Assembly: GCF_009914755.1 (NCBI RefSeq)
Contig: NC_060940.1
Source: the human T2T-CHM13v2.0 reference genome, Homo sapiens
Length of the DNA stretch: 64,000 nt
Reading direction: 5' to 3' (one strand)
The translations under genes were made by a program, and so were the position numbers. The notes beneath the pieces are model-generated. The model was not told where the DNA came from and did no database searches. It was given only the letters and a program-made list of their open reading frames with translations. Positions 38,959-52,266 of the stretch are shown here, piece by piece. Within the stretch, counting starts at the first letter, position 1; every line of letters starts with the position of its first letter.

Positions 38959-41900
38959 ATGGGCGCCTGGGCCTTCCCCGCAGCCCTTTTCCTTCTCTGC
39001 CTGACTTCCGAGAGCCTGCAAGGTGGTGAGGGCAGCTTGGGGCTGGGGGTTGGAGAATGGGCATCTGTGACTGGGGCTGGGGGTCCAAGTGGGGCCCTGG
39101 CCAGATGCTGGGGTTCTGGAGACAAGGAGGGCTGGGGTGTGGAAAGCCTGGTCTGGGCAGAGAATTCAGACAGTGAGGGTTTTTGGGGGCTGGAGGATAG
39201 ATGCCTGGGCGCTGCCCCATCTCAGCCTCTGGGGTCCCCAGCCTTGAGTCAGCACTGTCTTGCTTCCGCAGGGCTGCCCCTTCTGCCTCCTGGCCTGGGG
39301 AAAGGTAGGTGGGCCCTCTGGCACTGGGGTCAGGAAGAGTCTCCCATCTCTCCTGCCCTGGGGGTGTGGGAGCTCTCTGGGACTCCCGATGCGGGGCCCA
39401 GGAGAGCTCAGGGCCCTTGCTGTCTTCCGGGCAGGGAGTCTCATCAAGTGTCCACTCAAGGGTGGGGAGCACAGACACCCTGCACTCTCAGAAGAGTCTC
39501 CCGGGGCAGAACATGCAGCCCTGAGGACGGGCCTGGGCAGGCTGAGAAGGGTGGGCAGGTGTGACAGGAGGGGCGGACCCACCGGCAGGCCAAAGGGGGC
39601 CGGAGGGGGAGAGGAGGGAGGGGACAAGGAGAACTGAGCCTGCTGAGGGGCAGGAGGTGGAGTGTCATGGAAGAGTCTTTACTTCAGGCACCTGGGGGGT
39701 CCTAAGGGTAGGAGGAGGGGCTGCCCCTGAGCCCTGATGCATCTGAGCTTCAGGAGAGAAAGATGGGGGGCAGAGGTGGTGAGAAGAAGAGGAGGAGATT
39801 TCCATGAAGGGAGAGGAGCCCAGTACTGAGAATGGATGGGAGAGGAGAGGAAGAGGGTGGAGTGGGCTCTGCCCCACAGTCCCCCAGAGCCCTGGCTCAG
39901 ACACCTTCCTCCAGGCCCAGGGGCCCTCTAGCCTCCACTGCCCTAGCCCCAGACTGCTCACCTCCTCTGCCCTCTACCCTCCTGTGACAGCAGGGAAACT
40001 GAGACCTGGAAAGGGAGGTGGCATCCAGATTTGGGCCCCTTTGTCCCCTTGTAAGTTCCCCTGCTTCCCCCTGAACCCCACAGGCTTAGGGAGCCCAAAT
40101 GGCTACAGATCTGGTAAAGCTGGTGGCGGGGTGCTTGGGGAGGGTGGCACACCGGCTCCCAGCTGCTCCAGCACCCCGGGCTCAACATCTCACTTCTCCC
40201 ACAGTCTATGGCCCCCACAGTGGCCTGGGAGCAGGTGAGGCCTGGCATAGGGAAGGGAGGCGTCTGAGGGCAGGGCACGGGGCAGGGGGGAGGCAGGACA
40301 GGAACAGGGAAAGCTGGGCGGGGGGCAGGTAAAGGGGGAAGCAGTCGTCTCAGAAATACATGGGGACAGAGCATAGCCCCAGAGTGTCCCCCAGGCACCC
40401 TGGCTGGGGAGAGGGGAAGGCAGGCAGGAAGAAATGGAGCGGGGAGGGAAGAAAGGAAAGAGAGCAGAAAGGAAGGAGAGAGGGAAGGAGGGAGGGAAGG
40501 AGGCTGAAAGCACCCACCTGTGCCCCACAGCCCTCCCCCCTCATGGGAAGGGACTGAGTTCCCACAGGCCCACTGCTTGGATAGGCTGTGGGCCAGGTGT
40601 GGGGCTCTGGGGAGATCCTGGGGGAGGGGTGTCCCTCACCTCCCTGTCTCTCCAGGCTATGATGGGGGCGTGAAGCCACAGAAGCCAGGTGAGCCCTGCC
40701 CCGGCCCCAGCTCTTTGTCTCCCCCTCTTTCTCTCACACTCCTCACCTCACCTCATCTGTCTCTCCAGGATTCGTGGTCAGGCATGGGCTGGGAACCCAG
40801 CCAGGTGAGAGCCGTGGGGTCCCCTCCTTCCCTCCCTCCCAGGCCTCAGACGGAAGAGGCAGGATTGGAGAGATTGTTGGGGGGAGGCGCAGAGAGCCTC
40901 TCAGGTTTGCTGGTGTCTGGCTTAGTCCAAGGGGGGGTTCAAGGGTCTTGTACCCCCACCTCAGCTGGGACCCCAAACCTCCTCAGCTCACCTCTCTCTC
41001 TCCCACGAGCCCTTCCACTAAGAATGGCTATGGAGCAGGTAGAGATGGGAGTGGGGGAGCTGGAAGCCAGGATTCTAGGGGTATCCCTGGGATGGGGATT
41101 CCTGAGCCCCTCATCTGATCCCCCTCTCTTTCCCAGACACTGAAGGGGGCATGAAACCCCAAAACCTAGGTGAGGCTCGCCCAGCCCCTGCCTGCCTCCC
41201 TCCTCCTGACTCCCTCCTGCCTTCTCGCCCCAGGGTTCAGGACCTTCGCAGGTGCTGCAGCCCAGCCAGGTGAGGCTGGGGGAAGCGGGTAAGGAATGGG
41301 AGGGGCTTGGGGGTGCCTAATCTTTGCCTGATACTGTGGGGGAGGGAATGCAGCCAGATCGGTGTTTCCAGGGTCTTCTCCAGGCTCCCAGGCCTCAGAG
41401 AGGGCAGAACAGGTGGGTGTCTCACGGGAAGTGGGCAGGAGGGGACGGTGAGGAGTTCTGATGTCTGGCTTGGTAAGGGGACAGGGGCACCTGGGCCTCA
41501 CCCCTGCCTCAGCTCGGTGTGGCTGTGGAGCAGGGAGCCCAGGGCGGGGAGGTGGGGCCCCTTCATCTGCCCATCTCTCTTCCCAGGCTTTGGAGGGGCT
41601 GAGAAGCCCCAGAAGCCAGAGGCGAGGCCGCCCCACACCTGTCCCAGTGTCCACTTCCCACCCTCTGTCTCTGTCTCTGCTTGACGCCCCATTCCCCCTC
41701 CTCATGTCCCTCTGGCTCTGTCTCCCCAGGATATGGAAACGGGCTGGGAGCAGCGGCCTTCCCAGTGGCCGGAGCCCAGTCAGGTGAGGAAACGTCGGGT
41801 GTGGCAGGACCTGGGCTTCCAGGAGGGAGGGGGAAGGGGCAGAGCAGAGTCAGGGCACCAGGAGCTGGGAGAGCTGGGCTCTGGAGGGAGGGCAGGGCTC

Positions 41901-50900: not shown

Positions 50901-52266
50901 ACCTGGCCCTCCTGATGCTGTCCCTGTTCCACTAGCCTGTCCCTAGCTCCTCTCCAATCTCTGTCCTGCAGGTTTAGGTTATGGGAATGGTGTCCTGGGA
51001 GCCAGGGTCTTCCCCGAGGCCCACCCACAGCCAGGTGCCTGGGGAGCAGGGGTCGGGGTGGGAGAGTTGGGCTCAGGGCCCCAGCCCAGCCTCTGACACC
51101 CTCTTTCCTCCTCCAGGGTTCCATGGGGCCAATGGTTTTAGGAATAGTGAGTCAGACCCAGGGGACAAAGTGCAGTGGAGTGGGGGAGACAACAGCCCAG
51201 GGGCTAGGCGGGAATGACCAGAGTCTCTTGGAGGGGATGGGGTGGAAGCTCTGGTGTACCCCAAAGCAGCAGCTCCAGCCCCTGAAGGAAATGGTAAGAA
51301 ATGAGCCTTCTGGGAGCAGAGCCAAGCCCAACAGGGGCCAGGGGTCCCAGCTCCTGTGGGCAAGGGTACCCCTGCCAGCTCTCCTCCCCACAGGGCAGGC
51401 CGGGGTGCTGTGGAACTCTCGCTGGCCCACCCTCCAGGCCTGGGGGGCCGGCTTGAAGCCTGGATATCAGGCTGGAGATGAATATGCTGAGGCCAGGAGC
51501 CAGCCAGGTAACGGGATGCCTGGATGAGTGTGTTGGGGCCATTAGAGGTGGCTTCAGGGAACTGGGCCCTGGGCCCAGGTCTACCCACAGCCCCACAGAG
51601 ATAGAAGGTACAGCCCTCTTGGCGGAGGGGATGGAGTGAGTGAGAAGAGGCCAGGAGGGCATAGGCAGGAAGGAGCAGGAAGGAATGGAGCTGGAGGAGA
51701 GGCCAGAAGAGCCCGGGACCCTGAGAGCCAGCCCAGACACTGGACCAAGAAGGGGAGGTGATGGAGTTGGGAACGAGGGCCATCACGGACTCAGTTCTCC
51801 ACACTCTGTCCCTCTCCCCCCGGTCCTCTGAGAAACTGAGGCAGAGCTGAGCCCTGGGCCCTCCGGGGAGGGGGTGTCTCCCACAGCCTGGGTTGAAGCT
51901 GGGGTGGACGGAAGCTCTCTGGTGACCCGAGTGCTCCTGGTCTGTCTGTCTGTGCCATAGGGGGCCCCGACGTGAAGAGAGGCAGCAATGGCCAGCTGGG
52001 GAATGGCTACGGAGGTGAGAGGGAGGCGCAATGGCCAAGCCGCCTGCCCAAAGGCCCCCCGTGGTCACCCCTCCAGCCATACTGGGGGACACCCAGCCCT
52101 TGGGAAGGATAGCAGGTTCTGCCACCTGTAGGTGGCTGCTGAGTGACTGACCCCAGAAGCTCAGGTCCCTGGGAGGGGAGGAGGGGGCAAGGCCTCACCA
52201 GGGCCCCGCCCCTCCCTAGCCCAGCTCTATGTCTTCCCAGGCCGCTGCCCTCTGGGGAAATGCTGA
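38959..52266 (+). CDS. GREP1: Glycine-rich extracellular protein 1 (secreted, tropoelastin-like micro-exon gene; formerly LINC00514); maximal model 42 exons, 616 aa
   Basis: Exons: 38959-39025, 39272-39304, 40084-40113, 40205-40234, 40656-40688, 40769-40804, 41137-41169, 41234-41269, 41730-41783, 41922-41954, 42060-42119, 42560-42571, 43085-43120, 43487-43516, 43613-43645, 43943-43975 (GC donor), 45380-45409, 45488-45520, 45609-45644, 45965-45997, 46083-46118, 46300-46335, 46420-46452, 46538-46591, 47177-47212, 47354-47386, 47626-47766, 48070-48099, 48484-48516, 48900-48935, 49037-49069 (GC donor), 49175-49204, 49529-49660, 49937-49981, 50582-50623, 50766-50798, 50972-51034, 51117-51146, 51234-51293, 51394-51507, 51961-52014, 52241-52266. 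All internal exons are multiples of 3 and phase 1-1; total 1851 nt, no internal stop. [22 protein letters not shown]...GGRCPLGKC*. Real transcripts may use only a subset. Confidence 0.88.
44043..45208 (+). mobile_element. Three Alus in a GREP1 intron (44043-44352, 44359-44665, 44907-45208)
   Basis: Alu consensus with A-rich or (AAAC)n tails. Confidence 0.9.
46621..46912 (-). mobile_element. Alu in a GREP1 intron
   Basis: Antisense Alu; gagcccaggctt flanks both ends as a target-site duplication. Confidence 0.92.
50160..50428 (-). mobile_element. Alu in a GREP1 intron
   Basis: Poly-T plus antisense Alu; ctcttgct flanks both ends. Confidence 0.9.

What the first reader, a model, noticed from the sequence alone, without database searches (positions are those of the whole stretch)
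38959..52266. Hidden 42-micro-exon gene (GREP1) looks like an unrecognised tropoelastin paralog
Seen: a signal-peptide exon ending SLQG|G, then 40 internal exons of mostly 30-60 nt, all symmetric phase 1-1 and mostly splitting Gly codons. They join into a stop-free G/P-rich ORF of up to 616 aa that alternates Gly-rich exons with Lys-pair exons (KPQKP, KPPKP, KPLKP) and ends GGRCPLGKC*. Recalled knowledge: ELN has the same all-phase-1 cassette design, KP-type cross-link domains (exon 4 ALGPGGKPLKP) and a last exon GGACLGKACGRKRK. Inference: GREP1 is a divergent elastin-family gene, although it is usually treated as an lncRNA or orphan secreted protein. I cannot confirm that this relationship is unpublished.
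Basis: partly seen in the sequence, partly recalled or inferred. Interest (0 to 1): 0.95.

Follow-up and report, generated by a model that had tools for sequence, protein, structure and literature searches.

The report
GREP1: possible divergent elastin relative
GREP1 is a real, already named secreted matrix gene built from dozens of tiny exons, and its gene design and chromosomal neighbourhood suggest, without proving, that it is an ancient and very divergent sister of the elastin gene.

Summary
GREP1 (window 38959-52266, +) has a signal-peptide exon ending in phase 1. All 27 of 27 internal RefSeq coding exons are phase 1-1, mostly 30-60 nt, and 24 of the 27 start with a split Gly codon. Exons ending K-P-x-K-P alternate with Gly-rich exons, and the protein ends GGRCPLGKC. 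I get 35 exons and 498 aa at most, and the longest human isoform seen is 519 aa.

The elastin reading is partly supported.

For:
- I rebuilt ELN from chr7, and it has the same all-phase-1-1 design, a 33-nt KPLKP exon and a C-x4-C last exon.
- GREP1 lies in a block paralogous to ELN's. chr16 carries KREMEN2-GREP1-CLDN9/6, chr7 carries CLDN3/4-ELN-LIMK1, and chr22 carries CLDN5, KREMEN1 and LIMK2.

Against:
- Profile methods find no homology.
- GREP1 is hydrophilic and lacks KA domains and the RKRK tail.
- Orthologs were found only in placentals and marsupials.

No held paper links GREP1 to elastin. I put paralogy at about 0.5.

The parts
38944..39022 (+). Exon 1: 5'UTR and signal peptide (CDS from 38959). 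Ends in phase 1 on the first base of a Gly codon (..SLQ|G).
   Evidence: The leader is conserved in 58 of 124 placental models and in marsupial models. Secretion depends on it, per passages of 10.1101/2020.03.10.981001.
39272..40234 (+). Exons 2-3 (39272-39304, 33 nt; 40205-40234, 30 nt). Gly/Pro/Leu-rich, phase 1-1.
40656..40688 (+). Exon 4: 33-nt Lys-pair exon ending KPQKP|G.
40769..41783 (+). Exons 5-7 (40769-40804, 41234-41269, 41730-41783). Gly/Ala-rich spacer exons, phase 1-1.
41922..41954 (+). Unannotated 33-nt Lys-pair sub-exon ending KPPKP|G. It lies inside the annotated alternative exon 41880-41954.
   Evidence: Has an AG acceptor, a GT donor and phase 1-1. Its use as a 33-nt exon was not shown here.
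42060..43516 (+). Exons 8-10 (42060-42119, 43085-43120, 43487-43516). Gly-rich spacers, phase 1-1.
43613..43645 (+). Exon 11: 33-nt Lys-pair exon (KPQKP).
45380..45409 (+). Exon 12: 30-nt spacer exon.
45488..45520 (+). Exon 13: 33-nt Lys-pair exon (KPQKP).
45609..45644 (+). Exon 14: 36-nt spacer exon.
45965..45997 (+). Exon 15: 33-nt degenerate Lys exon (KAQEP).
46083..46118 (+). Annotated alternative cassette exon, 36 nt, phase 1-1, Gly-rich.
46300..46335 (+). Exon 16: 36-nt spacer exon.
46420..46452 (+). Exon 17: 33-nt Lys-pair exon ending KPLKP|G. This is the same motif and length as ELN exon 4.
   Evidence: ELN exon 4 is.
46538..46591 (+). Alternative cassette exon, 54 nt, phase 1-1. Used in the 519-aa isoform.
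47177..47212 (+). Exon 18: 36-nt spacer exon.
47354..47386 (+). Exon 19: 33-nt Lys exon (KPQMP).
47734..47766 (+). Exon 20: 33-nt Lys-pair exon (KAQKP). A long form, 47626-47766, is annotated as an alternative.
48484..48516 (+). Exon 21: 33-nt Lys-pair exon (KPQKP).
48900..48935 (+). Alternative cassette exon, 36 nt, phase 1-1.
49037..49069 (+). Exon 22: 33-nt Lys-pair exon (KPQKS) with a GC donor.
49175..49204 (+). Exon 23: 30-nt spacer exon.
49529..49660 (+). Exon 24: 132 nt, non-repetitive, holds one Cys. Conserved across placentals.
50582..51146 (+). Exons 25-26 (50582-50623, 50766-50798) and alternative cassette exons 50972-51034 and 51117-51146. All phase 1-1.
51394..52014 (+). Exons 27-28 (51394-51507, 51961-52014). 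Non-repetitive C-terminal region.
52241..52691 (+). Last exon. It enters in phase 1, encodes R-C-P-L-G-K-C plus stop (CDS to 52266), then the 3'UTR.
   Evidence: The C..G.C end is kept in 74 of 124 placental models and 6 of 6 marsupial models.

Best explanation
GREP1 is a genuine secreted extracellular-matrix gene that is already named.

Shown here:
- It consists of a signal-peptide exon, at least 33 symmetric phase-1-1 micro-exons and a short terminal exon.
- It grew by tandem duplication of units made of an exon plus its flanking intron.
- The product is a hydrophilic chain rich in Gly, Pro, Gln and Asn. 33-nt exons ending K-P-x-K-P alternate with Gly-rich spacers, and the chain ends in a conserved C-x4-C loop.

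Inferred:
- GREP1 is an ancient, very divergent paralog of ELN, probably an ohnolog from the vertebrate genome duplications. It lies in the chromosomal block paralogous to the one that holds ELN, and it shares ELN's KP-type exon design, exon phase and terminal Cys-loop exon.
- It is not an elastomer. It has neither the hydrophobic domains nor the KA cross-link domains.
- The most likely mode of action is a matrix-bound, lysine-cross-linkable linker. The Lys pairs would be oxidised by lysyl oxidases as in ELN KP domains. Alternatively Q-K-P could serve transglutaminase, but that motif preference is recalled, not tested.
- The C-terminal loop would dock the protein on microfibril-associated or fibronectin matrix.
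For: Architecture:
- GREP1: 27 of 27 internal exons are phase 1-1.
- ELN as rebuilt here: 32 of 32.
- Section 2.1 and 3.1 passages of 10.1101/2024.12.03.626628 state that all tropoelastin splice sites are phase 1:1.

KP exon:
- ELN exon 4 and GREP1 exon 17 are both 33 nt and end KPLKP, with the junction one base after the Pro codon.
- Genome-wide, the K-P-x-K-P|G-GTRAG pattern has 20 sites. 6 are in GREP1, 1 is ELN exon 4 and 13 are scattered singletons. The reversed-pattern control gives 7.

Termini:
- Both last exons enter in phase 1 and encode G-x-C-x4-C with L-G-K inside the loop.
- The Cys pair is conserved in therian GREP1.
- GREP1 exon 1 ends ..LQG|G, or ..QQG|G in marsupials. Per the same preprint, most non-primate amniote ELN leaders end ..QG-GG.

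Synteny:
- CLDN9 lies 11.7 kb from GREP1. Its two best non-local paralogs in the whole genome (66% identity each) lie 199 and 261 kb upstream of ELN.
- The KREMEN2 exon 21 kb upstream of GREP1 has its best paralog on C22 at 29.60 Mb.
- The LIMK exon 47 kb downstream of ELN has its only paralog on C22 at 31.74 Mb.
- C22 also holds the next-best CLDN9 paralog.

Function:
- Mouse Grep1 is expressed in the inner annulus fibrosus (PMC13082079 passages).

Weak positive signals:
- Smith-Waterman score 223 against a residue-shuffle null of 151 +/- 17 (0 of 300 reach it). The reversed control scores 174.
- The GREP1 profile scores ELN above 200 of 200 shuffles.
Against: No standard homology test is positive:
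- hmmsearch of an 18-ortholog GREP1 profile against ELN gives -89.7 bits after bias correction.
- hhalign gives 0.2% probability. Reversed ELN gives 0.5% and 30 shuffles give 0.0-0.3%.
- The same profile run over 1.84 billion representatives finds 96 proteins at E <= 0.001. The 67 new proteins among these 96 were checked: they read as GREP1-like and hold no KA motif. The other 29 were GREP1 models already retrieved.
- Permuting GREP1 exon order does not lower the alignment score (102 of 500 permutations reach it).
- The N-terminal collinearity is not significant from the ELN side (99 of 1000).

Chemistry differs:
- GRAVY is -0.64 for GREP1 and +0.70 for ELN.
- Ala+Val is 12% against 36%.
- Gln+Asn is 11% against 1%.
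- GREP1 has 0 KA-type motifs against 9 in ELN. No KA or poly-Ala relic exists in any frame of the locus.
- There is no RKRK tail.

Other points:
- Named orthologs are placental or marsupial only. An ohnolog should be about 450 My old or more.
- An all-phase-1-1 gene follows automatically from duplicating one 1-1 exon unit, so the 27 exons are not 27 independent agreements.
- Claudins lie upstream of ELN but downstream of GREP1, and the pairs are oriented differently.
- The match of exon order (exons 3-5 are 30, 33 and 36 nt in both) is not kept in other mammals, several of which have an extra segment there.
Confidence: 0.5

Rival explanations
1. Independent origin. GREP1 arose in the mammalian stem lineage and expanded by tandem duplication of a phase-1-1 exon unit. 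Its likeness to ELN is convergence, meaning Gly/Pro-rich composition, Lys-Pro motifs and the class 1-1 exon structure common in secreted matrix genes. Its position in ELN's paralogous block is coincidence.
For: - Only therian orthologs were found.
- All profile tests were negative.
- Exon-order permutation shows no collinearity.
- Tandem duplication of exon plus intron is visible.
- Composition is very different.
- PMC3291537's abstract (search listing) states that elastomeric proteins with alternating domain architecture evolved independently several times.
Against: - The position is hard to explain. The closest genome-wide paralogs of GREP1's neighbour CLDN9 flank ELN, and KREMEN and LIMK tie both blocks to a third on C22. 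By my rough estimate a random locus falls in such a block well under 1% of the time.
- The conserved terminal C-x4-C exon with L-G-K, entered in the same phase, is not explained by composition.
- Failure to find non-mammalian orthologs is weak evidence for a fast-evolving micro-exon gene. Human and wombat share only 34% identity.
Confidence: 0.35
2. GREP1 descends from a collagen-like matrix gene, for example the chr16 counterpart of EMID1 (next to KREMEN1 on chr22) and COL26A1 (chr7). It would have lost the EMI domain and the Gly-X-Y register.
For: - An EMI-domain exon lies 78 kb from the KREMEN1-like exon on C22, and EMI hits lie on C7 at 102.7 Mb. An EMID-type gene therefore belongs to the same paralogon and sits near KREMEN, as GREP1 does.
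- 10.1101/2020.03.10.981001 likened GREP1's composition to collagens.
- Automatic names include 'collagen-like'.
Against: - The longest Gly-X-Y run in GREP1 is 3.
- The 10 Gly-X-Y candidate exon intervals at the EMID1 locus (of 15 intervals in the scan) show mixed phases (1-1, 1-0, 0-0, 0-1), unlike GREP1.
- There is no EMI hit on C16.
- Pfam finds nothing in GREP1.
Confidence: 0.05
3. The ORF is not a functional protein-coding gene. It would be a lncRNA with a fortuitous open frame.
For: Former lncRNA annotation as LINC00514.
Against: - The frame is open over 29-35 exons.
- The leader, exon 24 and the C-terminus are conserved across placentals and marsupials.
- Secretion, glycosylation and mass-spectrometry peptides are reported in 10.1101/2020.03.10.981001 (passages).
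Confidence: 0.02

Closest known systems
Tropoelastin (ELN), chr7q11.23
   Same: - The signal peptide is alone in exon 1, which ends in phase 1.
- Every internal exon is phase 1-1.
- Cross-link-type exons alternate with Gly-rich exons.
- Both have a 33-nt exon ending KPLKP.
- The last exon is entered in phase 1 and encodes G-x-C-x4-C with L-G-K.
- Both grew by exon duplication.
- Both lie in paralogous chromosomal blocks next to closely related claudin pairs.
   Different: - GREP1 is hydrophilic, with Gln/Asn-rich spacers instead of Val/Ala/Pro-rich hydrophobic domains.
- It has no KA domains and no RKRK tail.
- It has one more Cys in the mature chain (4 Cys in the 415-aa precursor, one in the leader), where ELN has 2.
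- It is not adjacent to a LIMK gene.
- It was found only in therian mammals.
- It has no detectable profile similarity to ELN.
GREP1 as published (10.1101/2020.03.10.981001: secreted glycine-rich extracellular protein, formerly LINC00514)
   Same: It is the same gene. It is secreted, cleaved, glycosylated and disordered, and it is associated with fibronectin and EMILIN2 (passages).
   Different: The paper compares composition with collagens and never uses the word elastin (0 occurrences). It does not discuss exon phase, KP exons, the Cys-pair exon or synteny in the text I could search. Its supplementary figures were not available to me.
EMID1 / COL26A1 (EMI-domain collagen-like proteins)
   Same: They are secreted Gly-rich matrix proteins encoded by small exons, located in the same paralogon near KREMEN1.
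   Different: They have true Gly-X-Y repeats, mixed exon phases and an EMI domain. GREP1 has none of these.

Membership tests
Tropoelastin / ELN family | Exon 1 holds only the signal peptide and ends in phase 1 with Gly at the junction. | tested here: met
   GREP1 exon 1 ends SLQ plus G|. ELN exon 1 as rebuilt ends ..PG plus G|. This is the family rule per 10.1101/2024.12.03.626628. The junction is offset by one residue between the two genes.
Tropoelastin / ELN family | [quoted passage not shown] | tested here: met
   27 of 27 internal GREP1 exons, plus 5 annotated cassette exons and one hidden exon. ELN has 32 of 32. This carries little weight on its own, because duplicating one unit produces the same result.
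Tropoelastin / ELN family | Hydrophobic domains rich in V, I, L, A, G and P that alternate with cross-linking domains. | tested here: not met
   The alternation is present, but the spacers are polar. GRAVY is -0.64 against +0.70, Val 4.1% against 13.2%, Ala 8.2% against 22.3%, and Gln+Asn 11.2% against 1.1%.
Tropoelastin / ELN family | KA-type cross-linking domains (Lys pairs in poly-Ala). | tested here: not met
   0 in GREP1 against 9 in ELN. 0 in the 67 new database proteins checked. No relic in six frames of the locus.
Tropoelastin / ELN family | KP-type cross-linking domains (Lys pairs with Pro). | tested here: met
   7 K-[PA]-x-K-[PS] pairs in the 415-aa product. The 33-nt KPLKP exon is shared with ELN exon 4. 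Actual cross-linking was not tested.
Tropoelastin / ELN family | C-terminal domain holding a conserved Cys pair. | tested here: met
   The C-x4-C end is present in 74 of 124 placental models and 6 of 6 marsupial models. The remainder are truncated or differently predicted models. Unlike ELN, GREP1 has one more Cys in the mature chain.
Tropoelastin / ELN family | Tetrabasic RKRK terminus. | tested here: not met
   GREP1 stops directly after the second Cys.
Tropoelastin / ELN family | Statistically significant sequence or profile similarity to elastins. | tested here: not met
   hmmsearch gives -89.7 bits. hhalign gives 0.2%. No elastin appears among the 96 hits of the 1.84-billion-protein profile search. 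Only one ELN sequence (human, my own exon chain) was available, so no ELN profile could be built.
Tropoelastin / ELN family | Synteny with LIMK1 (the orthology criterion used in the field). | tested here: not met
   No LIMK paralog lies on C16. The LIMK exon has hits only on C7 and C22. GREP1 is therefore not an eln ortholog. This does not bear on paralogy.
Tropoelastin / ELN family | Location in a block paralogous to the ELN block (expected of an ohnolog). | tested here: met
   CLDN9/6 pair with the two C7 claudins beside ELN (66% identity, the best non-local hits). KREMEN2 pairs with C22, and LIMK on C7 pairs with C22.
Tropoelastin / ELN family | Present throughout jawed vertebrates. | tested here: not met
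   Named hits are placental and marsupial only. Absence elsewhere is weak evidence, because micro-exon genes are hard to annotate.
Tropoelastin / ELN family | Lysyl-oxidase cross-linking, coacervation and incorporation into elastic fibres. | not testable with these tools
   This needs biochemistry.
Collagen-like / EMID family | Gly-X-Y triplet repeats. | tested here: not met
   The longest run is 3 triplets.
Collagen-like / EMID family | EMI domain. | tested here: not met
   The genome search with PF07546 gives 16 matches, none on C16. Pfam finds 0 families in the 519-aa isoform.

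The most novel reading that the evidence does not exclude
GREP1 and ELN are ohnologs of a single pre-duplication matrix gene that had a signal exon, KP-type Lys-pair micro-exons alternating with Gly-rich ones, and a terminal Cys-loop exon. On this reading ELN later gained its hydrophobic and KA domains, while GREP1 kept a KP-only, non-elastomeric state. GREP1 would then be the first known relative of elastin. It would serve as an outgroup for reconstructing how elastin arose, and it would be a second lysine-cross-linked matrix polymer in mammals.
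Probability: 0.4. Interest if true: 0.85.

Novelty: new variant of a known kind. Interest (0 to 1): 0.62.

Why it matters
Elastin has no known relative. [quoted passage not shown]

A sister gene would give elastin research an outgroup, and it would make the origin of the KP and KA domains testable. It would also reframe GREP1, which has been studied only as a breast-cancer dependency linked to GDF15. GREP1 would become a structural, cross-linkable matrix component. That fits its strong, SOX9/ADGRG6-dependent expression in the inner annulus fibrosus (PMC13082079).

If the likeness is convergent, GREP1 is still a clean natural example of how an alternating cross-link/spacer protein is built by exon duplication.

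Tried and rejected
1. A Pfam scan of the 415-aa RefSeq-selected product was not run. The 519-aa isoform P0006 was scanned instead and matched 0 families.
3. The first translation of exon 24 used the wrong frame (P0001) and was discarded.
4. Global collinearity of GREP1 with ELN is rejected. 102 of 500 exon-order permutations score as high.
5. The match of exons 3-5 (30, 33, 36 nt, with the KP exon fourth in both) carries little weight. Given GREP1's exon-length frequencies the chance is about 0.015, and several mammals have an extra segment there.
6. An EMID1-type origin was considered and judged unlikely.
7. I looked for other genes with clustered KPxKP exons. Outside GREP1 there are only singletons.
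8. I looked for KA or poly-Ala relics in the locus and found none.
9. The unnamed 160-aa protein P0177 (42% identical to wombat, 40% to leopard) could not be assigned to a taxon.
10. The journal version of the GREP1 paper is not held, either by DOI or by a recalled PMC id. Only the preprint text was searched, and its supplementary figures, including the one on homolog conservation, were not available.
11. One literature search failed on term length.

Full report
**1. What is there**

The window is chr16:2976001-3040000 of T2T-CHM13. Joining the 29 RefSeq coding exons of GREP1 gives a stop-free frame of 415 codons.

- Exon 1 (64 coding nt) encodes a hydrophobic leader and ends on the first base of a Gly codon.
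- All 27 of 27 internal exons are multiples of three in phase 1-1. 23 of them are 30-60 nt.
- 24 of the 27 open with a split Gly codon, and every one ends on a G.
- One exon (exon 22) has a GC donor.
- The last exon encodes R-C-P-L-G-K-C and a stop.
- Exons of 33 nt ending KPQKP, KPLKP or KAQKP alternate with Gly-rich exons of 30, 36 or 54 nt.

Five annotated alternative exons are also clean phase-1-1 cassettes. With these the longest chain I can justify is 35 exons and 498 aa. The longest human isoform returned by a database is 519 aa. A permissive scan throws up many nested or doubtful intervals at a rate not far above control sequence.

The array is not chance. The pattern for K-P-x-K-P, G and a GTRAG donor occurs six times in the window, all in GREP1, against 0.00 expected. 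Ten Lys-pair exons share their flanking intron sequence, which shows growth by tandem duplication of units made of an exon plus its intron.

**2. What is already known**

The gene was the lncRNA LINC00514. It was renamed GREP1 in 10.1101/2020.03.10.981001. The passages I read describe a secreted, cleaved, glycosylated, glycine-rich and disordered protein that is a breast-cancer dependency acting through GDF15. [quoted passage not shown]

- The word elastin does not occur in that text.
- Mouse Grep1 is strongly and specifically expressed in the inner annulus fibrosus (PMC13082079 passages).
- A 2026 review co-written by the first author of the GREP1 paper still describes it only as a secreted protein linked to GDF15 (PMC13143143 passages).
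- Searches for 'elastin' with 'GREP1' found 1 paper, on an unrelated snail protein. Searches with 'LINC00514' found 2 papers with unrelated titles and abstracts. A search for '1520401A03Rik' found 5 papers (3 listed, none on elastin) and gave no link.
- The journal version of the GREP1 paper and the preprint's supplements could not be seen.
- NCBI's automatic names call some orthologs 'elastin-like' and others collagen-, fibroin- or spidroin-like. That is a by-product of best BLAST hits, not a claim of homology.

**3. The family**

Database searches returned GREP1 from many placental orders. With a wombat protein as query they returned five marsupials. No named hit lies outside Theria.

- Human and wombat are 34% identical, so the gene evolves fast.
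- The leader, the non-repetitive exon 24 and the C-terminal region are conserved.
- 74 of 124 placental models and 6 of 6 marsupial models end C-x-x-G-x-C. The rest are truncated or differently predicted models.
- Pfam finds nothing.

**4. Direct comparison with ELN**

I located ELN on chr7 and rebuilt it from the genome. It has 34 exons and 753 aa. All 32 of 32 internal exons are phase 1-1, exon 4 is a 33-nt exon ending KPLKP, and the last exon is entered in phase 1 and encodes GGACLGKACGRKRK. The exon chain is my own. The exon numbering follows the convention as I recall it.

Alignment tests give little.

- The Smith-Waterman score is 223. It beats residue shuffles (151 +/- 17, 0 of 300), and the reversed sequence scores 174.
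- Permuting GREP1's exon order does not lower the score (102 of 500 permutations are as high).
- The apparent N-terminal collinearity is significant only from the GREP1 side (0 of 1000) and not from the ELN side (99 of 1000).
- A profile of 18 GREP1 orthologs scores ELN at -89.7 bits after bias correction. This is still above 200 of 200 shuffles and above the reversed sequence.
- hhalign gives 0.2% probability, no better than its controls.
- The same profile, run over 1.84 billion representative proteins, finds 96 proteins. The 67 I had not already retrieved read as GREP1-like and hold no KA motif. The other 29 were GREP1 models already retrieved.

Sequence homology is therefore not demonstrable.

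The chemistry also differs.

| Property | GREP1 | ELN |
|---|---|---|
| GRAVY | -0.64 | +0.70 |
| Gln+Asn | 11% | 1% |
| Ala+Val | 12% | 36% |
| KA-type motifs | 0 | 9 |
| RKRK tail | absent | present |

No KA or poly-Ala relic exists in any frame of the locus.

**5. What does support kinship**

(a) Junction-anchored features.
- Both genes have a 33-nt KPLKP exon with the junction one base after Pro.
- Both have a terminal exon entered in phase 1 that encodes G-x-C-x4-C with L-G-K in the loop.
- Both have a leader exon ending ..QG|G. According to 10.1101/2024.12.03.626628 this is the form in most non-primate amniote elastins. Marsupial GREP1 reads ..QQG|G.

(b) Position.
- CLDN9 lies 11.7 kb downstream of GREP1. 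Its best paralogs in the whole genome, apart from its neighbour CLDN6, are two claudins on chr7 (66% identity each), 199 and 261 kb upstream of ELN.
- A KREMEN2 exon 21 kb upstream of GREP1 has its best paralog on chr22 at 29.60 Mb.
- A LIMK exon 47 kb downstream of ELN has its only paralog on chr22 at 31.74 Mb.
- chr22 also holds the next claudin.

The three blocks thus look like products of the vertebrate genome duplications, and GREP1 and ELN occupy corresponding neighbourhoods. Fish eln genes sit with septin4/5 and limk1 (PMC12733013 passages). From recall, human SEPTIN5 lies beside CLDN5 on chr22, which would fit the same picture.

By my rough estimate, a locus unrelated to ELN would fall in such a block well under 1% of the time.

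Caveats:
- The order and orientation of the claudins differ between the two blocks.
- Being in paralogous blocks does not by itself make two genes homologous.

**6. Rivals**

- Independent origin with convergence is the main rival. It is favoured by the therian-only range and the negative profile tests. It is disfavoured by the position and the terminal exon.
- A collagen-like (EMID1-type) origin was considered because an EMI exon lies 78 kb from the KREMEN1-like exon. However, the Gly-X-Y candidate exons at the EMID1 locus show mixed phases. GREP1 has no Gly-X-Y run longer than 3 and no EMI relic.

**7. How it probably works**

Shown: the protein is secreted, disordered and matrix-associated. 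It is modular, with repeated Lys pairs and a conserved Cys loop.

Inferred:
- The Lys pairs are cross-linking sites, as in ELN KP domains. The Gln inside K-P-Q-K-P could alternatively serve transglutaminase, but that motif preference is recalled, not tested.
- The C-terminal loop mediates docking on microfibril-associated or fibronectin matrix.
- GREP1 is too polar to coacervate like tropoelastin, so it is not an elastomer.

**8. Verdict**

I put paralogy with ELN at about one in two. GREP1 should not be filed as a tropoelastin, because several defining features were tested and not met.

Noticed in passing
window 54771-55538 (+): A 255-aa stop-free, proline-rich frame lies 2-3 kb past GREP1's 3' end and is absent from the hub gene table. 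It matches the C-terminal extensions of GREP1 gene models of six mammals at 71-83% amino-acid identity over 122-240 residues. The stretch is GC-rich, with long open frames on both strands. It could be a conserved CpG island that gene predictors read through, or an unannotated exon.
   Followed up: partly
window 49069-49071: GREP1 exon 22 uses a GC donor instead of GT. It is the only internal exon that does.
   Followed up: no
proteins P0076 and P0106 (pig, UniProt): These gene models fuse a PAQR4 domain (PF03006) to GREP1 sequence. They are read-through predictions across PKMYT1's strand and so are annotation artefacts.
   Followed up: no
G000 C22:29,679,034 and C7:102.74-102.77 Mb: EMI-domain exons (apparently EMID1 and COL26A1; names recalled) lie in the same paralogous blocks as KREMEN1 and ELN. 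This is another gene pair consistent with the paralogon.
   Followed up: partly
G000 C22:40261607 (-) and C20:33835825 (-): These are isolated sites that encode KPQKP followed by G and a GTRAG donor, identical in form to GREP1 exon ends. I did not examine which genes they lie in. About 7 such sites are expected by chance.
   Followed up: no
window about 51236-51295: The T2T sequence encodes ..[10 protein letters not shown] where the RefSeq isoform 3 protein P0006 has ..AAALAPEGNG. This is a single-residue difference between the assembly and the reference protein.
   Followed up: no
window 47626-47766 and similar upstream extensions: The 3' ends of the introns before several Lys-pair exons stay open in the exon's frame and read alike (..PHLLP.S.PG). 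This explains why long alternative forms of these exons are annotated.
   Followed up: partly
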